Origin: Planctomycetota bacterium
GTDB lineage: Bacteria; Planctomycetota; Planctomycetia; Pirellulales; Pirellulaceae
Length of the DNA stretch: 64,000 nt
Direction: 5' to 3'
Assembly: GCA_018969045.1 (NCBI GenBank)
Contig: JAGWZB010000001.1
Coordinates: forward strand, 250-64,249
Shown here: piece by piece, positions 6,081-64,000 of the stretch
Layout of the letters: each line of letters opens with the position of its first letter
Position numbering within the stretch: position 1 is the stretch's first letter
Position numbers and translations under genes: made by a program
Notes under the pieces: generated by a model
The model's database searches: none
What the model saw: the letters and a program-made list of their open reading frames with translations, nothing else
What the model was told of the DNA's origin: nothing

Positions 6081-6340
6081 CGGAGTCCCCGTGCCTGGGA
6101 GTCCCCGTGCCTGGCACCTTACGAGGGGCGGAGTCCCCGTGCCTGGCACCTTACGAGGCAAAGTCCAGTGCCTGGCAAAGTCCAGTGCCTGGCACTTTAA
6201 CCTGGTGCCCTAACCTGCAGTTGCCTCCTGACTAGGTGCCTGGCACCGATGATTCAGCTAGTTTTCAACGGAGTCCCCAGTGCCTGGCACCTTAACCTCG
6301 CTGGCAACGAAGGTGCCCCCTGACGCGTGCCTGGCACCGA
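6081..6340. repeat. REP/BIME-like cluster left of RAYT: 8 same-orientation copies of GTGCCTGG(CAC), four preceded by GGAGTCCCC
   Basis: Copies start at 6091, 6107, 6139, 6168, 6185, 6236, 6280, 6327; GTGCC-T-GGCAC is an odd palindrome; local tandem periods of 16, 32 and 17 bp. Confidence 0.85.
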
Positions 6341-6599
6341 AGGTACGGATTACTTGGTAAGTGAAGTGGGCCCATTTTTTGTCAGTTTTTTCGATGCGTT
6401 TGACCAGACGTGTCACTCGAGTCGTTGAAACTTCCAATCGCCCCGGCGTTACCCAGGATGTCCAACTCGATGTTTACTGGGAGTTGCCTCAACTCCAAAT
6501 CCATATTCACACACAGGATCGATTGATGAAATTTCCCTTTTTTGCGTTGCTCTCGGCCAGTTTTCGACGGCGACGCATCACCCAACATGGAGGTGCATT

Positions 6600-7868
6600 A
6601 TGCCACGTGACTTGCGGGACAAAGTTTTTCCACCAGATGAGAACTGTTTTGCCCACCTGTACAATCGCTGTATCGATGGAGCCTACCTTTGCGGCAATGA
6701 TCCAAGGACGGGAAAAGATTATTCTTATCGCAGAAAATGGATTGCCGATCGACTCGAACAACTGGCTTCAATCTACCTGATCAACATCCTTGCACACAAT
6801 GTTTTGGATAATCACTTGCATTTGGTTGTGCTGACACTGCCTGATGAAGTTGAGAAACTATCGGATCGAGACATCGCGATCCGTTGGCTGTCGCTACACC
6901 CTGGGAGAGAACTCGACGAATTTATTTGTGCTGATCCGACCGAATCTCAGATAAGTGAACTCTTAGCTGATACAGAACAACTTGGGAAGGTACGTGCAAG
7001 GCTATCTTCTCCGTCAAGCTTTATGAAGGATCTTTGCGAGCCTATTTCCAAACGTGCAAATAAGGAGGACGGGCGTAGTGGTCACTTTTGGGAGGGGCGA
7101 TTCAAAGGCAAGAGGCTCTTAGATATGCTTGCTATTTTAGTTTGCGTTGCCTACGTCGACTTAAATCAGTTGCGTGCTGGAATGGCAAAAACACTCGGAG
7201 AATCCAACTATTCTTCGATCCAAGCGAGAATTCTAGCGAGTCAAAATCAGATGGCACCAAGTCTTGCATTATCAAAAGTTTCGATTTCCAACGAAGAAGC
7301 TGCGATGCGGATCAGGAAAGTGCCTCGAGTCGAGATTCGAAGACGGATAGAAGCCGCACGAGTCATCGCGCAGCGTCGGATGGTTCTAAAGGATGCTTGG
7401 CTTGCTAAACTAACGATTGATCCTGAACAATCGGTCCACCCCAATGACTCTCACCTGAGTAAAGGTGGGCTTCGAGCATCCGACAAAGGATTTCTCGAAG
7501 TAACTCTGGAGCAATACATCAAAATCCTGCATGAGGCGCTCCAGTTTAGGCCTGGCCGAGCATCGCTGGAAACTGCTTCCCAGGAGTTCAGGGAAGTAGC
7601 TAAATCGCTAGGATCAACACCAGAAAATATAAGTTGGATGATTCAAGACTTTCAGAATATATTTCGCCACGGATATTTTGTCGGAAGTCCGGAGACATTG
7701 CGCAAGGAGACCCAGCGGAATGAGCGTAAACGAACCTTGCACAGCGTGAAATGCAGGCTTTTTTTCAGTGAAAATCCGATAGTGTATGACGAGCAAACCA
7801 AGCGATACCGCAAAGCAATATCCGAGTCAAAGTCGGTCAAAACGCAAGAGCCATCGACGGCGTCCTAG
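6600..7868 (+). mobile_element. rayT: REP-associated tyrosine transposase (RAYT / TnpA-REP, Y1 HUH endonuclease), long form
   Basis: H.YNRC..GAYLCG.D..TGK.Y..RR.WI N-terminus; HUH motif NHLHL (H72/H74); FWEGRFK; catalytic Tyr in YVDLN (Y185); GGAGGT RBS; palindrome clusters on both sides. Confidence 0.85.
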
Positions 7869-7891
7869 ACACCCATACATATCGATGAATG

Positions 7892-8134
7892 TCAAAAAAT
7901 TTCAATTAGTCGCCCTTGAGGGCTTTTGCGGGGATGCAAGAGTACTTCGGCGCGGTAATCGGCAACATCAAGCGAGCTTCTAAAGGGCTTGTAACCCAGG
8001 TTCGGTGGAGTTAGATCTGTCTTGGCTTTGGCTCTTATTGCGGGAATATCCAGTGCGTCTGGCAAACGAAGGTGGATTTGCATTACGAAAGACCTTTGCA
8101 TATTTCCACTAATTCCGATTGAAAACTGATGCAA
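7892..8134 (-). CDS. Possible small ORF or gene remnant of unknown function
   Basis: 80-aa ORF in an otherwise empty 450-bp gap; internal MQIHLRLPDALD start looks protein-like; no recognisable family. Confidence 0.2.
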   Translation of the reverse strand: MHQFSIGISGNMQRSFVMQIHLRLPDALDIPAIRAKAKTDLTPPNLGYKPFRSSLDVADYRAEVLLHPRKSPQGRLIEIF

Positions 8135-8320
8135 GGATCCATCGAGCCTGGGTGAGTTCTAAGCGCATATGTTCTAAGCGTAAATGGCTGCAAATTCTTT
8201 TGCGCAAATTCTTTTGCGATCGCGCTGGGCATCGGTCCTCATAGGATTAAACGTCGATGCAATCTGCGAATATTACGAAGCTGTCAAGCTGGCTTGATTA
8301 AAAAAACTCAAATGCCTAGG

Positions 8321-8459
8321 GTGCCTGGTACTTGTGCGGCAATCGGACGGTTTCGGGGTGCCAGGCACTCACCTGGCACCGATAGGACGGACCGGTAAGT
8401 GGCAGGCACCGATAAGTGAGTGGCAGGCACCGATAAGTTCGCTTGGTGCCACCCCGAAA
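8321..8459. repeat. REP/REPIN-like cluster right of RAYT
   Basis: GTGCCTGGTAC 8321, GTGCCAGGCAC 8358, CCTGGCACC 8372, GTGGCAGGCAC 8399 and 8420 (21-bp period); 10-bp inverted repeat TTTCGGGGTG (8351-8360) / CACCCCGAAA (8450-8459). Confidence 0.8.
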
Positions 8460-13984: not shown

Positions 13985-14647
13985 ATGCTCTGGAAACGAC
14001 GCACTTGGATTTTAGGCTTGGTCTCGATCAGCCCCCTTGCCACAGGCTGTCGCGGTTATTCCTATGGCCAGCTTTTAAAGCCTACCGACAAGGATTTGGT
14101 AGGGAGTCACGAAGCCGGATCGGAAGTTTTCCATCCTCTGGTCGATGAGTCGGTTGCCAAGTTGCTTACCCGACAGCAGGAGCAATGCCACATCGGTCCC
14201 GATGGAATTGCGCAAAAGAAGACGATTTGTTTTGTCTGTGTCGAGAACAAGATGTCGGAGGATATCGGGGACTTTAAGGACCAGCTTTACGAACAGATCG
14301 ACAGCAAGATCTTGGAATCGGATGTTTTTCGGCCTATCAGCCGGCGCATGGTCGACGCCGCTTTGCACGAGACTCGCTTGCGTCCTGATTCGCTGATGGT
14401 TCCCGATAATATGCAACTCTTTACGTCGGTGCTTCAGCGTCAAGGAGCTCCGATCGATTATCTTCTGTATGCCAAACTGACCAGCGGAACGACTCAGCGC
14501 AACACGTCCAAGCAGCGCGATTATCTGCTGACACTCGAATTGACCAACGTCCATTCTGGCGAATATTCCAAAGAGTCGGCAGAGATCCGCAAAGGCTACC
14601 ATAAAACCGCTCTGGGTGGGGTCTGGAATTACAATCCCCTGAAATGA
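13985..14647 (+). CDS. LpoB-like lipoprotein (penicillin-binding protein activator LpoB family)
   Basis: Lipobox LATGC; C-terminal YLLYAKLTSG...RDYLLTLELTNVHSG pattern; upstream of a COG3014-like gene; start set at ATG 13985. Confidence 0.7.
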   Translation: MLWKRRTWILGLVSISPLATGCRGYSYGQLLKPTDKDLVGSHEAGSEVFHPLVDESVAKLLTRQQEQCHIGPDGIAQKKTICFVCVENKMSEDIGDFKDQLYEQIDSKILESDVFRPISRRMVDAALHETRLRPDSLMVPDNMQLFTSVLQRQGAPIDYLLYAKLTSGTTQRNTSKQRDYLLTLELTNVHSGEYSKESAEIRKGYHKTALGGVWNYNPLK

Positions 14648-16110
14648 CACCGCGCTTTCTAGGTGCATTGTTATGTTGGTGCTTTGGCCTGCTTGCGGTC
14701 GCCGGCTGTTCCACGCACGCAAAGCGCATCTCGTTGTCGCGATCGCTCTTTTACGAAGGCCAACTCGATGCTTGCCGAGACCGTCTTGAGAAGCTCCACA
14801 AGAGCCATCGGCATGACCGCGATGTGACCAACCTTGATCTGGCGGTTGTGGATCTGCTGGAAGGCCGAAGCGCTCAGGCTCAAAAACGCCTGAAAGAAGT
14901 TCGAGATCGATTCGATCATTTGGAGCAGGAATCCCTGAGCGAAAAAACGGTTTCGATGTGGACCGACGACACAGCTCGGTCTTACGCGGGCGAGGATTAT
15001 GAAAAGATTCTCATTCGAGTCTACTTGGCTCTTGCAAGCTTGATGGATGATCGAGTGGATGCCCAAAGCTATACGCTTCAGATCCAGGATAAACACGACC
15101 AAGTCATGCAACGTCTCTGGGGTGAAAAGCCTATCGATGCAAAAACCGACAGATTTAGTGGATTGCCGATCGGGTTTTACTTGCGAGGATTGCTGCGAGA
15201 ACAAACCCATATCGATTACGATGATGCGCTTCGAAGCTACAACCAAGTAGCTCAATTGCTTCCTAATAGCCCTTGGATTCTCCAAGACATCCAGAGGGTC
15301 ACCCAAGGGGTCCACTCTCAACCCGGTTGCGGGGTGATCTACGTCTTTGCCATGGTTGGCAGAGGACCCTACAAAGTCGAATCGGTCGAGCAGCCCACCA
15401 GCGATGCACTCCTGATCGCAGATCGAATCGTCTCTGCCTTGGGACCCTACAAACTCCCCCCGACCATCGCGCCGATCAAAGTTCCCAAAGTGGTCGTTCC
15501 AGAGTCGGATATCCAATCCGTTGAAGTCACCGTCAAGGGGCAAGCTCGCGGCACCACCGTTTCGATTGCCGATATCGACCAACTGGCGATCGAGACTTCG
15601 CAAGCCGCAAGAAACCAGCTGATCGCAAGGGCAGTGGCAAGACGTGTTATCAAGAAAGCAACCGTCGCTGCGGTGAAGAAACAAACCTCATCGAACAGCT
15701 TGGCGTCTCTGGGATTCGATGCTGCAGGTGTGGCTTGGGAAGCGTTAGAAAAAGCTGATACACGCTGCTGGGGTCTGCTGCCCCGGAACATCCAAGTCTT
15801 GAGAATCGAAGTCCCCGCAGGAACTCATACCCTGTCGTTTGCGCCCCAGTACCTAAGGCCAGCTTTCTATGGGGAAAGAGGGCCCTGGCAAGAACAGCCC
15901 TGGCAAGAACAGCCCCGGCAAAAAAATGGGGGGCAGAAAAATGGAGGGCAGAAAAATGGAGGGCAGAAAGATGGGGGGCAGAAAGAGACGGGGTTAGTGG
16001 TTTCGCGGGGATTGCAGGAGCAAGTCACGGTGATCGATGGCCAAAACACGTATGTGATCGGCTGGTTCCCTGACGCGTACACTGCACCGAGAATTTTGAT
16101 CCCGGAATGA
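14644..16110 (+). CDS. COG3014-like TPR lipoprotein
   Basis: Lipobox VAGC; SYAGEDYEKILI..Y.AL and ARAVARRVIK..ADTRCW.LLP motifs; ATGA overlap with LpoB-like gene. Confidence 0.72.
   Translation: MTPRFLGALLCWCFGLLAVAGCSTHAKRISLSRSLFYEGQLDACRDRLEKLHKSHRHDRDVTNLDLAVVDLLEGRSAQAQKRLKEVRDRFDHLEQESLSEKTVSMWTDDTARSYAGEDYEKILIRVYLALASLMDDRVDAQSYTLQIQDKHDQVMQRLWGEKPIDAKTDRFSGLPIGFYLRGLLREQTHIDYDDALRSYNQVAQLLPNSPWILQDIQRVTQGVHSQPGCGVIYVFAMVGRGPYKVESVEQPTSDALLIADRIVSALGPYKLPPTIAPIKVPKVVVPESDIQSVEVTVKGQARGTTVSIADIDQLAIETSQAARNQLIARAVARRVIKKATVAAVKKQTSSNSLASLGFDAAGVAWEALEKADTRCWGLLPRNIQVLRIEVPAGTHTLSFAPQYLRPAFYGERGPWQEQPWQEQPRQKNGGQKNGGQKNGGQKDGGQKETGLVVSRGLQEQVTVIDGQNTYVIGWFPDAYTAPRILIPE
15883..15987. 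repeat. In-frame 15-bp tandem repeat, 7 units (PWQEQ x2, PRQKN, GGQKN x2, GGQKD, GGQKE)
   Basis: Units at 15883, 15898, 15913, 15928, 15943, 15958, 15973, all sharing a GGCA(A/G)(A/G)A core. Confidence 0.9.
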
Positions 16111-37041: not shown

Positions 37042-37327
37042 CAACAACTCTACCTGTTAGCTAGTTTGCTAGCATTCATTAGTTTACAAACGACAAGAAT
37101 TTCTAGGTGACACAAGGATGTTATCATCGAGTTTTGCTAGCAAATTACAAGTCCTTCGGAGAGGATCCGCTAAACGATACAGCCGGACCTTCGTCTTGCC
37201 CTAACTGTGTGGTTTCCCGTATATCCTACGTTTATCGTTTGAATGCAAGTCCGTTTTGGCCGAAGAACCGGTGAATGTCAGCCTCCATTTCATGACAGAT
37301 AACTTCGCCAATACATTCGACGAACCT

Positions 37328-61097: not shown

Positions 61098-63812
61098 ATG
61101 ATACATTGGGACGAATATCCACTAGCGATCAAAGAGGAAATCCTTGCTCAAGTCCAATCGCATGATGAGTTGCTCGATTCGCTGATCGATTCCCCCGTGG
61201 ATCTTGGTGAACTTCAAATCGATTCAGTACCTGGTTACTGCATCATCGAGCAAATTCAACCAAGCCATTCGCTTCATAGTATCTTCTTAGCGATTAGCGA
61301 TCCTCGGATCACGCCGATCCCACTTAGACACTCGGTTTGCATCAAACTCGCATGCGTAAACAGCGAACATGGCAGATTTAGCTTTTCCGAACTTGAGGAT
61401 TGCCGCTTAAGTATCGATAAAGAGACCGAGTCGCTGAGAATCCTTTCTAAGATTCCGCAATTGCATGGAAAGATTCCTAAGCTTATTCATGCAGGCACGA
61501 TACGGATTGGATCGTTTGAGACGAAATATCTCGTAACGGAGTACTTTTTTTCAGTGCGCAAAGCGCGGGCGGAGGATTTGACTTCAGTAGCGAGCATTTG
61601 CCAGTTGCTCAAGATTCTTCAGATCATCCATCAACAAGGAATAGTTCACGGTGATTTAACACTAGAGAATCTAATGATGGTTGATTCCCGGGTCGGCCAA
61701 AAAGCTTTAACTCAAGAGGAGTATGATTGGAAAATCCTTGATTTTGGCAGTGTTGCGTTTTCTCGACGTTGGGGGCTTTTCAGTCCGTCGAAGCGACCAA
61801 GTTTTGCGCATCGGCTTGCTGGCCCGCTCGATGAGATTCGATATGCATGCCCTATCAGTGCTTCGTATGACGTGGCGTGCCTAGCGTTGCTGATTCAAGA
61901 GTCGACGTGTTTGGCATTCACCGATGCAGGAGATCTTAAAAGCGGAGATTTCGAATCCTATTGGCGCTTAGCTACCGATCCTCGGCCCGAATTGCGTCCA
62001 AGCGATGCAGGGCAATTTCGAGGAGATCTTGTAGGACTAATGCGCAATGGAACTTGCCGGCGGAAATGGCATAGCTTATCAATAATTCGTGCTGGACTCC
62101 GACGCAATACAAAAACGGTTGCCTTGGTAGTAGCTATGTTCAGCACTGTAGCTTTTGCTGCAACCTATGCTATCTACCAGCGACAATTGAGCTCTCAAGC
62201 AAGAGAGCTAAATGCACAATTGAGTCAAACCGTAGAGTCGCTCATGCATCGCAATTCAAGTATGCTCGGCCAGATCACAGATCTTGCAATTATGGAGCGG
62301 ATCGGGGTTGGACAAGGAAAATCACAAATCGATGGATTGGTTGAACAGAGTTTAGCCACTTGGGGCAATTCAAACCTTAACCCTCAGGTTCGCATTACGG
62401 CATTAAGGTTATTGGTGGACGCATCGCAAGCGATGTTGGAATTTCACAAATCTAAAAGCTCACATGCGTGCTTGATTCGAACGTATGAAGCGATCCAAAG
62501 GGTTGCGGGCCAGTCCATCAACAAAAATCCGTTAGTTCGGTTATTAACGATCCGAATAAGAAGCAAACTGATACGACTTGCGGTTCAATACAACCACCCA
62601 ATGCCCTTGGGGCAGGACCCCCAGAGAGTTGCTAAAGAGCTTGTTGACGATTTTCTGAGCATGGATTTACTGAACAAGGAAAGTGGTCGCAGCTTAACAT
62701 CAAAAGAGTCACAAATCGAGTTATTACATCGCGAAACCCTGTGTTGTGCCGAGAACCTGCTTCGAAGTGCTATTTACGTGTTCCGTGGTTCTGACTGGTT
62801 GCTTGCAAAAACTCCGGTGGTTCAGCGAGTCTATGAACATGCAACTAAGAGTGTTAATCGACAGGACAAAACCCTTTGTGTACCACTGGCGGCTCTTGAA
62901 TGCCAATATGCATTTATGATCCATAAGGGTTTTTTGAGTCCTGTTTGGTGGGCTGGGGTAGATGATTACTCACTATTGGCTCGAATCGTGCAGCAACGAT
63001 ACATCGAAGCTCAAGCTTTGGTTCAAGAAGGTTTGCAAGATAAATTGACCGACGAAGACGCAAATGTGGCCAGAGAGCTTCGTTTAAGGATCCCGAATTA
63101 CCTTGGAATGTCTTACTCACAGCAAGGCGACTTTAGTCGCGCAAGAGGCATGTTGCAGGAAGCATGGCGACTGAGCAAACAGGAGTTGGATCAAGCTCCC
63201 AAGTCGGTGTTATGTCTTAGGAGAGCGGCAAATGCAGTTTGGGATTTGGCAGACACATACACCAATGAGATTTTTATCACTCCGGAGATGAACGAATCTT
63301 GCCGAATGGAACTGAATAAGGCATCGATACCACATCGTAATTTAGCGATTGAGTTATGTCGGCAGTGGGTTCGGCTCGATCGGAGCAAGGAATCGGAGGT
63401 GGCGTATGTTGTCAATGTGCTTCGAGGTTTCTACTCGGAGTTTTCGATTGGGAACGAGGGGCGAGGCTTACAGATATTGCATCAGGCTCAGCAGGAAGTG
63501 ATTTTAAAAGATCCCGGGATTGGACACAGCAATGGGGACGAATTATTGATTGCCTCTGCGTTTTTGCATGTCCGAGAGCCAGGGGGGGATGGGCATCGTA
63601 ACTTGTATGAGAGCAGTCTAGAGAGATACCGAGAATGGTTGATAGAACATGAGCCAGCAGATGGACAAAATCTACAGCAAATCCATCGGGATCGAATTGC
63701 CGGACTCACAAGGTTAATGCAATCCGAAATATTTGGTGAATTGGAAGCCGATTCTCGATGGCGGGGGCTTAAACAATATGCGCAGCGAATCCTGAATCGA
63801 TCATCAATTTAA
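61098..63812 (+). CDS. Atypical Ser/Thr kinase-like membrane protein with long helical C-terminal domain
   Basis: VCIK, HGDLTLEN, ILDFGS retained; no GxGxxG or APE; TM helix TVALVVAMFSTVAFAATYAIY. Confidence 0.8.
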   Translation: MIHWDEYPLAIKEEILAQVQSHDELLDSLIDSPVDLGELQIDSVPGYCIIEQIQPSHSLHSIFLAISDPRITPIPLRHSVCIKLACVNSEHGRFSFSELEDCRLSIDKETESLRILSKIPQLHGKIPKLIHAGTIRIGSFETKYLVTEYFFSVRKARAEDLTSVASICQLLKILQIIHQQGIVHGDLTLENLMMVDSRVGQKALTQEEYDWKILDFGSVAFSRRWGLFSPSKRPSFAHRLAGPLDEIRYACPISASYDVACLALLIQESTCLAFTDAGDLKSGDFESYWRLATDPRPELRPSDAGQFRGDLVGLMRNGTCRRKWHSLSIIRAGLRRNTKTVALVVAMFSTVAFAATYAIYQRQLSSQARELNAQLSQTVESLMHRNSSMLGQITDLAIMERIGVGQGKSQIDGLVEQSLATWGNSNLNPQVRITALRLLVDASQAMLEFHKSKSSHACLIRTYEAIQRVAGQSINKNPLVRLLTIRIRSKLIRLAVQYNHPMPLGQDPQRVAKELVDDFLSMDLLNKESGRSLTSKESQIELLHRETLCCAENLLRSAIYVFRGSDWLLAKTPVVQRVYEHATKSVNRQDKTLCVPLAALECQYAFMIHKGFLSPVWWAGVDDYSLLARIVQQRYIEAQALVQEGLQDKLTDEDANVARELRLRIPNYLGMSYSQQGDFSRARGMLQEAWRLSKQELDQAPKSVLCLRRAANAVWDLADTYTNEIFITPEMNESCRMELNKASIPHRNLAIELCRQWVRLDRSKESEVAYVVNVLRGFYSEFSIGNEGRGLQILHQAQQEVILKDPGIGHSNGDELLIASAFLHVREPGGDGHRNLYESSLERYREWLIEHEPADGQNLQQIHRDRIAGLTRLMQSEIFGELEADSRWRGLKQYAQRILNRSSI

Positions 63813-63816
63813 AGGG

Positions 63817-63990
63817 AACTACGGGGGACAGTCCCCGAGCACTCGGCATCGTATTTGCTAGCAATTAATCCCTCTCTGAACTACCGGGGACAGTCCCGGG
63901 ATTCTAGAGCATGCAATTGCTAGCAATCCGCATTGCAGGCACCGGGGACAGTCCCTGGGTTTTCCATCGCGCAATTGCTAGCAATCTGAG
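63817..63990. repeat. Array of 3 units alternating two palindromes, GGGACAGTCCC and TTGCTAGCAA (may continue beyond the window)
   Basis: GGGACAGTCCC at 63825, 63887, 63945; TTGCTAGCAA at 63855, 63917, 63975; periods 62 and 58 bp; inner spacer 19 nt in all three. Confidence 0.9.
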
Positions 63991-64000
63991 TCGCAAGAGG

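What the first reader, a model, noticed from the sequence alone, without database searches (positions are those of the whole stretch)
63817..63990. Dual-palindrome array with a fixed 19-nt variable spacer
Seen: three units of [GGGAC-A-GTCCC]-19 nt-[TTGCTAGCAA]-(22 or 18 nt). The inner spacers (CGAGCACTCGGCATCGTAT, GGGATTCTAGAGCATGCAA, TGGGTTTTCCATCGCGCAA) differ in sequence but not in length, and the array runs into the window edge. Inference: conserved geometry with free sequence implies a protein reading two dyads about 30 bp apart (three helical turns, same face), or a processed-RNA array with alternating repeats, loosely reminiscent of TIGR-type organisation. A BIME-like REP mosaic is the more conservative reading.
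Basis: partly seen in the sequence, partly recalled or inferred. Interest (0 to 1): 0.7.

Follow-up and report, generated by a model that had tools for sequence, protein, structure and literature searches.

The report
Repeat array flanking a tyrosine-transposase element
The alternating palindromes at the window's end are the upstream terminal repeats of a small, roughly five-copy mobile element that encodes a RAYT/TIRYT-type single-strand DNA transposase in a freshwater planctomycete; this is a known kind of element, not a CRISPR- or TIGR-like guide array.

Summary
In detail: three units of GGGACAGTCCC-N19-TTGCTAGCAA at 63825-63984, far above chance. The array does not run on. A near-identical metagenome contig (L019) shows one more A dyad starting about 3 nt past the window edge, then a T-rich tail.

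The "variable" spacers are not free sequence. Each has an 84-100% identical counterpart, in the same order, at other loci with different upstream flanks.

About 270 nt past the last dyad lies a 387-aa gene with invariant HUH and catalytic-Tyr motifs. It matches TIRYT proteins (hhalign 97-98%), and its model's best structural match is the E. coli REP-associated transposase 4ER8. The same dyad, extended to CCGGGGACAGTCCCYGGGT, recurs inverted beyond the gene. It fits the published TIRYT terminal-repeat motif GGGGWSAS.

Contig depth in four metagenomes puts the tail plus gene at 4.3-5.7 times the flanks. A paralogous gene inside the window (6600-7868) is flanked in the same way by a different dyad (GTGCCTGGCAC).

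No Nop or Cas gene, Rfam family, phage or plasmid match, or viral contig was found.

Verdict: a TIRtron/REPtron-type element, a new member of a known kind. The 18-19-nt A-to-B gap is kept next to genes only about 60% identical, so some geometric constraint is plausible but untested.

The parts
63823..64000 (+). Upstream (left) terminal repeat array of the element: three A-19-B units plus a linker, cut by the window end. A fourth and last A dyad is predicted to start about 3 nt beyond the window.
63825..63835 (+). A dyad 1, GGGAC-A-GTCCC (extended palindrome GGGGGACAGTCCCC, 63823-63836)
63855..63864 (+). B dyad 1, TTGCTAGCAA
63887..63897 (+). A dyad 2 (ACCGGGGACAGTCCCGGG)
63917..63926 (+). B dyad 2 (AATTGCTAGCAAT)
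63945..63955 (+). A dyad 3 (CACCGGGGACAGTCCCTGGGT). This 21-nt version is identical to the reverse complement of a right-end repeat in L031.
63975..63984 (+). B dyad 3 (AATTGCTAGCAAT)
63836..63854 (+). Inner spacer type 1 (CGAGCACTCGGCATCGTAT); 84-95% identical counterparts in L019, L028, L012, L014, L009, L006
63898..63916 (+). Inner spacer type 2 (GGGATTCTAGAGCATGCAA); 100% in L019, 84% in L028 and L012; absent from the two-unit copies
63956..63974 (+). Inner spacer type 3 (TGGGTTTTCCATCGCGCAA); 95-100% identical in L019, L028, L012, L014, L009, L020, L021
61098..63812 (+). Upstream neighbour, not part of the element: a 904-aa kinase-like/TPR protein whose stop codon lies 12 nt before the array. 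In the orthologous locus L021 its last 212 nt are missing and the array abuts the truncated gene.
6082..6340 (+). Paralogous element inside the window, left repeats: six GTGCC-T-GGCAC dyads in + orientation, several preceded by GGAGTCCCC
6600..7868 (+). Paralogous TIRYT/RAYT-like gene (422 aa); 29% identical to the L021 protein (E=1e-41); NCBIfam REP_Tyr_transpos E=1e-6, below cut-off
8321..8436 (-). Paralogous element, right repeats: GTGCCTGGCAC-type dyads mostly in inverted orientation (8358, 8399, 8420 on the minus strand; 8321 on the plus strand)

Best explanation
The array is the upstream terminal-repeat cluster of a mobile element of about 1.9 kb, of the TIRtron/REPtron type.

The layout, left to right, is: (A-19-B-18)n, a final A dyad, a conserved leader of about 260 nt with two terminator-like hairpins, a gene for a 387-aa TIRYT-like HUH/Y1 single-strand DNA transposase, about 250 nt of 3' sequence, and then two A dyads, inverted in L031 and one of each orientation in L021. 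The gene starts roughly 270 nt beyond the window's right edge.

The A dyad, properly CCGGGGACAGTCCCYGGGT, is the element's terminal inverted repeat. On single-stranded DNA it can form a 7-bp G+C-rich hairpin with a 3-nt loop. I infer that this is what the transposase binds and cuts next to, as IS200/IS605 TnpA and E. coli TnpA-REP do with their hairpins.

The B dyad (AATTGCTAGCAAT) is found only on the upstream side and in gene-less arrays. Next to the gene it sits 18-19 nt from an A dyad. I infer it is a second recognition site, either for the protein's extra domains or for a partner. Its role is not shown.

The three units are old tandem duplicates whose spacers have diverged while the dyads and the spacing were kept. 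Unit number changes between copies by recombination between dyads.

The tail plus gene is present at about five copies per genome. Gene-less A/B arrays lie in intergenic DNA of related planctomycetes, analogous to REP/BIME or TIR clusters.
For: Shown:
- Four assemblies of this locus break inside the array.
- L019 extends it to a fourth A dyad and a tail.
- Logan contigs that match window 63941-64000 exactly continue for 634-1486 nt and lie on L021's tail and, in X3, its gene. L031 bridges array, tail and gene.
- The gene product has invariant H72, H74 and Y193 in 28-36 homologs. NCBIfam REP_Tyr_transpos gives E=3e-9. 16 of 28 members hit Pfam Y1_Tnp.
- hhalign gives 98% (E=3e-13) and 97% (E=2e-10) to two published TIRYTs, against 4% to the E. 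coli RAYT.
- The AF2 model has pTM 0.77. Its top Foldseek hit is 4ER8, followed only by IS200/IS605 TnpA structures.
- An extended A repeat lies inverted on the far side of the gene in L021, L031 and L032.
- GGGGACAG fits the TIRYT repeat consensus GGGGWSAS (PMC3733652).
- Depth of tail plus gene against flanks is 45/7.9, 316/55, 102/19.5 and 60/14 in four runs, returning to 1x in the right flank.
- At least five different upstream flanks join the same array and tail.
- Spacer types are conserved between copies.
- The same architecture is found around paralogs: window 6082-8436, L034, L035, L036, L037-39, L040/41.
- Arrays without a TIRYT-like gene in the fetched flanks mostly lie between ORFs.
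Against: - The right side of the window's own copy was not seen directly. It is inferred from orthologous and collapsed contigs.
- Copy number rests on assembler k-mer depth in metagenomes. Related co-occurring strains could inflate it.
- No binding, cleavage or transposition has been shown for any TIRYT, so the hairpin-recognition step is by analogy only.
- The A dyad lacks the unpaired 5' tag (GTAG) that guides E. coli TnpA-REP.
- GGGGWSAS is a weak 8-mer and is not enriched in the window overall: 7 matches against 15 expected.
- One family member, L033 from Neorhodopirellula, shows no obvious flanking repeats.
- In L040/L041 the dyads on both sides have the same central base, so inversion is not universal.
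- The role of B is unexplained.
Confidence: 0.78

Rival explanations
1. A canonical REP/BIME cluster served by a domesticated single-copy RAYT. On this reading the dyads are ordinary REPs dispersed in hundreds of copies, and the neighbouring gene does not move with them.
For: The neighbouring gene is RAYT-family and many homologs are named RayT by JGI. Gene-less arrays exist in intergenic DNA. The best structural match is the E. coli REP transposase.
Against: There is no GT[AG]G or CGTC tag. Units are all direct rather than alternately inverted, and the palindromes are perfect and short. The protein profile matches TIRYTs at 97-98% but the E. coli RAYT at only 4%. Tail plus gene is at 4.3-5.7 times flank depth. 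In 64 kb the A dyad occurs at this one locus only. The exact composite motif was found on only 25 metagenome contigs and one reference genome.
Confidence: 0.12
2. An operator array on double-stranded DNA. A dimeric regulator, or the transposase's own extra domain, binds the perfect palindromes A and B about 29.5 bp apart to repress the transposase gene or block read-through from the upstream gene. This is not exclusive of the best explanation.
For: Both motifs are perfect palindromes, typical of dimeric dsDNA binders. The array lies in the 5' region of the gene. The A-(18/19)-B gap is kept next to genes only 59-61% identical, with unrelated spacer sequences. The protein has a conserved insertion and C-terminal domain of unknown function.
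Against: A also occurs beyond the 3' end of the gene and in arrays with no TIRYT-like gene in the fetched flanks. The gap is 14-25 nt in other subfamilies. 29.5 bp is 2.8 helical turns, not 3. No regulator gene is linked. Foldseek found no DNA-binding fold for the extra domains above noise.
Confidence: 0.08
3. A guide-RNA array (CRISPR- or TIGR-like) with alternating repeats, processed into units that carry two short spacers.
For: The form is superficially similar: two alternating conserved blocks and two blocks that vary within the array. One metatranscriptome has contigs over the array.
Against: The spacers are shared at 84-100% identity between copies. The unit is 58-62 nt, against about 36 nt (up to about 54 nt) for tigRNAs (10.64898/2026.09.09.750476). 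No Nop or Cas gene lies among the seven upstream genes or the two downstream genes. There is no Rfam hit, no phage or plasmid match to the array, and no occurrence on viral contigs. The RNA signal cannot be separated from DNA carry-over or from other copies.
Confidence: 0.02

Closest known systems
TIRtrons / TIRYT genes (Di Nocera, De Gregorio & Rocco 2013, PMC3733652); TnpA-Y1 subclass 2.1 of Quentin et al. 2018 (PMC6006769); RAYT Group 1 of Bertels et al. 2017 (PMC5581495)
   Same: - A RAYT-like HUH/Y1 gene flanked by inverted repeats.
- The repeat starts with GGGGWSAS (here GGGGACAG).
- Repeats can be self-complementary, 'double palindromic', and occur as singles, dimers or clusters elsewhere in the genome.
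- The protein has the M-x-R-x-x-R N-terminus, NHxH, FW[QEK]GRF and Y[IV][ED]LNP[IV]RA motifs of TIRYTs (hhalign 97-98%).
- R. baltica, a related planctomycete, is reported to have many such genes with flanking repeats.
- Group 1 is described as among the most IS-like RAYT groups.
   Different: - The upstream side is a tandem array of two alternating short perfect palindromes with a gap of about 18-19 nt, rather than one long TIR. B is absent from the downstream side.
- The protein has a roughly 60-aa insertion between the HUH and W motifs and a different conserved C-terminal domain (RCSDKGFL...), with no Pfam hit of its own.
- About 5 near-identical gene copies, against 1.3-1.8 per replicon for RAYT groups.
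- Quentin et al. found no REP-like sequences around subclass 2.1.
REP/BIME with RAYT (REPtron), e.g. E. coli yafM/TnpA-REP, PDB 4ER8
   Same: - A Y1 HUH enzyme whose gene is bracketed by the palindromes it is thought to act on.
- Palindromes also occur in intergenic clusters.
- Located at the 3' end of a gene, with terminator-like hairpins.
- Best structural match of the model.
   Different: - No GTAG tag and no bulged 20-40-nt imperfect stem.
- Units are direct, not inverted pairs.
- Low abundance.
- The gene is multi-copy.
- The profile match to the E. coli RAYT is poor (4%).
IS200/IS605 insertion sequences
   Same: - HUH/Y1 fold.
- Several near-identical copies per genome.
- Terminator-like hairpins upstream of the transposase gene, and a predicted leader pairing that covers the Shine-Dalgarno sequence, as in IS200 (own knowledge for IS200; for this element).
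   Different: - The Y motif is Y---NP (class 2), not Y---Q.
- The protein is 2.5 times longer.
- The ends are inverted repeats and arrays rather than two different subterminal hairpins.
- No tnpB.
TIGR-Tas arrays
   Same: Two alternating conserved blocks separated by two short blocks that vary within the array.
   Different: No Nop-domain gene. The unit is 58-62 nt, not about 36 nt. The spacers are conserved between copies. Not found on viral contigs.

Membership tests
TIRtron / TIRYT | Adjacent gene encodes a RAYT-like HUH/Y1 transposase (HUH motif, catalytic Tyr in Y---NP) | tested here: met
   H72, H74 and Y193 are invariant, with YVDLN(P). NCBIfam REP_Tyr_transpos E=3e-9, below cut-off. 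Foldseek top hits are 4ER8 and IS200-family TnpA structures.
TIRtron / TIRYT | Protein groups with TIRYTs rather than with canonical RAYTs | tested here: met
   hhalign against pfs148A gives 98% (E=3e-13), against rba2408 97% (E=2e-10), and against E. coli b228 4%.
TIRtron / TIRYT | Gene flanked by terminal inverted repeats | tested here: met
   CCGGGGACAGTCCCYGGGT is direct upstream and inverted downstream in L021, L031 and L032. For the window's own copy only the upstream side is visible.
TIRtron / TIRYT | TIR carries the GGGGWSAS motif | tested here: met
   The A dyad begins GGGGACAG (consensus from PMC3733652). L034's TIR begins GGGGACAC. The 8-mer alone is weak: 7 matches against 15 expected in the window.
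TIRtron / TIRYT | Copies of the TIR occur elsewhere as singles, dimers or clusters | tested here: inconclusive
   Gene-less A/B arrays exist on other contigs: L007, L010/18/29, L023, L027. Whether they occur in this same genome cannot be told from one 64-kb window.
REP/BIME-RAYT (REPtron) | REP is a 20-40-nt imperfect palindrome with an unpaired 5' GT[AG]G (or CGTC) tag | tested here: not met
   The dyads are 11-13-nt and 10-12-nt perfect palindromes with no GTAG or CGTC at the foot.
REP/BIME-RAYT (REPtron) | BIME consists of REPs in alternating inverted orientation with set linkers | tested here: not met
   All units have the same orientation: central A throughout and asymmetric spacers.
REP/BIME-RAYT (REPtron) | Single-copy, non-mobile RAYT gene | tested here: not met
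   Tail plus gene is at 4.3-5.7 times flank depth in four runs. At least five upstream flanks join the same tail.
REP/BIME-RAYT (REPtron) | Hundreds of dispersed extragenic copies per genome | not testable with these tools
   No complete genome of the source is available. Within 64 kb there is only this one locus.
IS200/IS605 | Short (about 150 aa) TnpA with a Y---Q motif, and different subterminal hairpins at the two ends | tested here: not met
   The protein is 387 aa with Y---NP, and the ends are inverted copies of one dyad.
TIGR-Tas | Adjacent Nop-domain Tas gene | tested here: not met
   Pfam and NCBIfam scans of the seven upstream ORFs and of the downstream ORF give no Nop domain.
TIGR-Tas | Units of about 36 nt (up to about 54 nt) carrying two array-specific spacers | tested here: not met
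   The period is 58-62 nt. The spacers are shared between copies at 84-100%.
CRISPR | Identical 23-50-nt repeats, unique spacers of similar length, cas genes nearby | tested here: not met
   The conserved blocks are 11-19 nt. The spacers are 18-22 nt and are not unique. No cas genes are present. There are no phage or plasmid matches.

The most novel reading that the evidence does not exclude
This would be a currently active, whole-element-mobile TIRYT transposon: about five near-identical copies, unit-number and insertion-site polymorphism between co-occurring strains, and a 212-bp deletion at one junction. Its Y1 enzyme would read two different dyads held 18-19 nt apart, the A hairpin through the HUH core and the B dyad through the lineage-specific insertion or C-terminal domain. 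That would be the first TIRYT with evidence of mobility. It would also be a natural case where one could test how RAYT-like enzymes seed gene-less palindrome arrays.
Probability: 0.3. Interest if true: 0.5.

Novelty: new member of a known kind. Interest (0 to 1): 0.3.

Why it matters
It turns an apparently exotic dual-repeat array into a recognisable element. It also adds a well-delimited planctomycete example to the little-studied TIRYT branch of the RAYT/IS200 superfamily, for which no activity has been shown.

Three features give concrete hypotheses for how these enzymes recognise DNA and how palindrome clusters grow: about five gene copies, arrays that vary in unit number, and an A-to-B gap conserved across roughly 60%-diverged elements.

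In practice, such arrays break short-read assemblies of these genomes. They can also be mistaken for CRISPR- or TIGR-like loci by repeat-based scans.

Tried and rejected
- CRISPR/TIGR reading: rejected on spacer conservation, unit length, absence of Nop or Cas genes, no Rfam family, no phage or plasmid matches and no viral contigs.
- Single-sequence searches of the 387-aa protein found nothing in Pfam or the PDB. Only NCBIfam (below cut-off), the family alignment, hhalign and the fold search placed it.
- The profile search against PDB sequences was weak: ISDra2 TnpA, E=0.02.
- Planctomycete 'class 3' TnpA-Y1 (Quentin 2018) was considered and rejected, because its Y motif is Y----Q whereas this family has Y---NP.
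- The genome-contig scan gave only one other genome, L005, where the 128-nt units are near-identical tandem copies.
- Metatranscriptome contigs over the array are inconclusive.
- L033 (Neorhodopirellula homolog) shows no obvious TIRs.
- Complementarity between the linkers either side of a dyad was looked at by eye and by ssDNA folding (z = -4.2). The predicted fold pairs neighbouring B dyads, as copies of a palindrome will. Unit deletions that re-pair different linkers (L014, L009) argue against a required long hairpin.
- Exact target site and element boundaries could not be defined from the available junctions.

Full report
**Observation.** GGGACAGTCCC starts at 63825, 63887 and 63945. Each is followed after 19 nt by TTGCTAGCAA (63855, 63917, 63975), with 22 and 18 nt between units. 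Neither motif is expected by chance: 6 matches against 0.9 expected, and 9 against 1.5, with 0 of 100 shuffles reaching either count. The A dyad occurs nowhere else in the 64 kb. The seven same-strand genes upstream are housekeeping-type: a secretin, an SDR, a CPA2 antiporter, an M32 peptidase, a DJ-1 protein, a hypothetical protein and a 904-aa kinase-like/TPR protein that ends 12 nt before the array. None is Cas- or Nop-like.

**Extending to the right.** Four public assemblies that encode the identical 904-aa protein all break inside the array. A scan of metagenome contigs for A-N(5-35)-B returned 25 loci. One of them, L019, is the same locus at 95.7% identity. It shows that the array ends with a fourth A dyad starting about 3 nt beyond the window, followed by CGGGCCAGCCCGAATTTTTT.... 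In four metagenome runs that hold the window, the contig that matches window 63941-64000 exactly continues for 634-1486 nt. It lies on the tail of locus L021 and, in X3, on nearly the whole gene. A Logan contig, L031, bridges array, tail and gene directly. A metatranscriptome contig that skips window 63600-63811 reproduces the L021 junction. L021 is therefore the orthologous locus carrying a 212-bp deletion.

**The spacers are inherited, not free.** Within the window the three inner spacers are 32-58% identical to one another. Each nevertheless has a counterpart at 84-100% identity, in the same order, in L028, L012, L014, L009 and L006. Those loci have different upstream flanks but the same downstream tail. 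Copies differ in unit number (2-5) and contain hybrid units. This is what tandem duplicates undergoing recombination look like. It is not what acquired spacers look like.

**The neighbouring gene.** About 260 nt after the last A dyad, L021 encodes a 387-aa protein. It has no Pfam or PDB sequence hit on its own. It does give a specific sub-threshold NCBIfam match to REP-associated tyrosine transposase (E=3e-9). It has 789 homologs, mostly from Pirellula and Pirellulaceae MAGs, and many are labelled RayT by JGI. In alignments of 28 and 36 members, the HUH histidines (H72, H74) and Y193 within YVDLN(P) are invariant. Sixteen of 28 members hit Pfam Y1_Tnp. Profile comparison gives 98% and 97% probability to two published TIRYTs, including R. 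baltica rba2408, but only 4% to the E. coli RAYT. An AlphaFold model (pTM 0.77) has E. coli TnpA-REP bound to a REP hairpin (4ER8) as its best structural match, followed only by IS200/IS605 TnpA structures. Relative to TIRYTs, the family has a roughly 60-residue insertion between the HUH and W motifs and its own conserved C-terminal domain.

**Architecture and copy number.** Beyond the gene, A dyads recur. Both are inverted in L031; L021 has one of each orientation. With flanks, the shared repeat is CCGGGGACAGTCCCYGGGT, which makes it a true terminal inverted repeat. Its first eight bases, GGGGACAG, fit the GGGGWSAS consensus reported for TIRYT terminal repeats (PMC3733652), although that 8-mer is weak evidence on its own. 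B dyads occur only upstream.

Assembler depth in four independent runs:

| Region | X1 | X2 | X3 | X4 |
|---|---|---|---|---|
| Left flank | 7.9 | 55 | 19.5 | 14 |
| Tail plus gene | 45 | 316 | 102 | 60 |
| Right flank | 10.6 | 56 | 21 | 14 |

The tail plus gene is therefore at 4.3-5.7 times flank depth (in X2 the laid contig ends at L021 2600). This agrees with at least five different upstream flanks joined to the same tail. One of those alternative flanks appears as a loose end in the same run as the window.

**Generality.** The window holds a complete paralogous example. ORF 6600-7868 is 29% identical to the L021 protein (E=1e-41). It is preceded by six GTGCC-T-GGCAC dyads and followed by mostly inverted copies (19 matches against 1.0 expected). 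That paralog sits at about 1-3 times flank depth.

Other family members on longer contigs show the same plan. L034 has inverted GGGGACACAGCAC... repeats. L035 has several inverted A dyads downstream. L036 has A-19-B upstream and two inverted A' dyads downstream. L037-39 have B-17-A-18-B upstream and inverted A' dyads downstream. L040/41 have 4-6 A dyads on each side. L033 has none that are obvious. A/B arrays without a TIRYT-like gene in the fetched flanks (L007, L010/18/29, L023, L027) lie between ORFs.

**Geometry.** The scan left the gap free between 5 and 35 nt. The A-to-B gap was 19 nt in 28 cases, 17 in 11, 24-25 in 8, and 13-16 in 8. The value depends on the subfamily. The B-to-A gap was 18-19 nt in 49 of 70 cases. 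Next to the gene, the A-to-B gap is 18-19 nt even in elements only 59-61% identical at the protein level and with unrelated spacer sequence. Some constraint on spacing therefore looks real, but it is not universal. 29.5 bp centre to centre is 2.8 helical turns, not 3.

**RNA-array tests.** There is no Rfam family. The array gives no phage or plasmid match, and the motif is on no viral contig. The unit length and the lack of a Nop gene contradict the TIGR definition. One metatranscriptome has contigs over the array, but DNA carry-over and other element copies cannot be excluded.

**Mechanism, and which steps are shown.** Three things are shown. The array is one end of a repeat-bounded element that encodes a TIRYT-like Y1 enzyme. 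The element is multi-copy. The dyads and their spacing are conserved while the spacers drift. By analogy with IS608/ISDra2 TnpA and E. coli TnpA-REP (own knowledge; structures), I infer three further steps:
- On single-stranded DNA the A dyad folds into a 7-bp hairpin with a 3-nt loop that the enzyme binds and cuts beside.
- B is a second site, read by the extra domains or by a partner.
- Arrays grow and shrink by recombination or repeated enzyme action at the dyads.

The hairpins with T-runs after the last A dyad probably terminate the upstream gene.

**Comparison and novelty.** The closest known system is the TIRtron/TIRYT class (Di Nocera 2013), which corresponds to TnpA-Y1 subclass 2.1 (Quentin 2018) and RAYT Group 1 (Bertels 2017). 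Di Nocera et al. already note self-complementary and 'double palindromic' TIRs, clusters of TIR repeats, and many such genes with flanking repeats in R. baltica. This is therefore a new member of a known kind. Its distinctive details are the alternating A/B upstream array, the inserted and C-terminal protein domains, and about five gene copies. The canonical REP/BIME definition is not met: there is no GTAG tag, the units are direct, and the gene is multi-copy.

**Caveats.** Copy number comes from metagenome k-mer depth. The window's own right side is inferred. No biochemical data exist for any TIRYT.

Noticed in passing
window 6082-6340, 6600-7868, 8321-8436: A second, complete TIRtron-like element. 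A 422-aa TIRYT/RAYT-like ORF is flanked by GTGCC-T-GGCAC dyads, six direct copies upstream and mostly inverted copies downstream. Several upstream copies are preceded by GGAGTCCCC. Depth is about 1-3 times the flanks. Other strains carry a different 387-nt segment in place of 7893-8299.
   Followed up: partly
L021 1886-2144 (also L031, L032, L036, L037, L039); begins about 14 nt beyond the window's right edge: The roughly 260-nt leader between the array and the start codon is strongly conserved, even between elements about 60% identical at the protein level. One hairpin keeps its stem through five pairs changed on both sides (CTCGATGCA/TGCATCGAG against CCACGCG/CGCGTGG). An invariant CTCGCCTAG segment is predicted to pair with the Shine-Dalgarno region. 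Only about 3 independent lineages are sampled. No Rfam match.
   Followed up: partly
window 37066-37075 and 37134-37143: Two B-like sites (TTGCTAGCAT, TTGCTAGCAA) lie 68 nt apart in an intergenic region with no A dyad. They could be chance, or a separate binding site for whatever reads B.
   Followed up: no
L005 756-1253 and L026 960-1460 (Planctomycetaceae MAG JAJTFC010000160 and a metagenome contig): A related array with a 128-nt unit that carries A, B, a B-like half site and a third palindrome GGTGCCTGGCACC. The stretch TGGCACCGATCTTGC matches the sigma-54 -24/-12 consensus TGGCAC-N5-TTGC (own knowledge). The units are near-identical tandem copies.
   Followed up: no
L021 1-1300: Fragments of IS3-family transposase genes lie immediately upstream of the truncated 904-aa gene homolog and the array. 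Weak matches to the same sequences occur near the arrays in L012, L014 and L020, suggesting these junctions are hot spots for rearrangement.
   Followed up: no
L034 2533-2763: Upstream of another TIRYT-like gene lies a tandem array of about six copies of a 32-nt unit containing CCGTAGC(G/A)CGAGCACTCCTGCCCG, possibly a GTAG-tagged REP-like repeat. It sits outside the GGGGACAC-type TIR.
   Followed up: no
L037 about 185-200 and about 2200; L039 about 575-590: GTGCCTGGCAC dyads, the repeat of the window's other element, lie just outside the A/B repeats on both sides of a P0032-type gene. The two dyad families therefore co-occur at one locus.
   Followed up: no
window 15882-15993: Three overlapping 15-nt tandem repeats (GCCCTGGCAAGAACA, GGCAGAAAAATGGAG, GGGCAGAAAGAGACG) lie inside the ORF 14644-16110. 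This is probably a repetitive protein segment.
   Followed up: no
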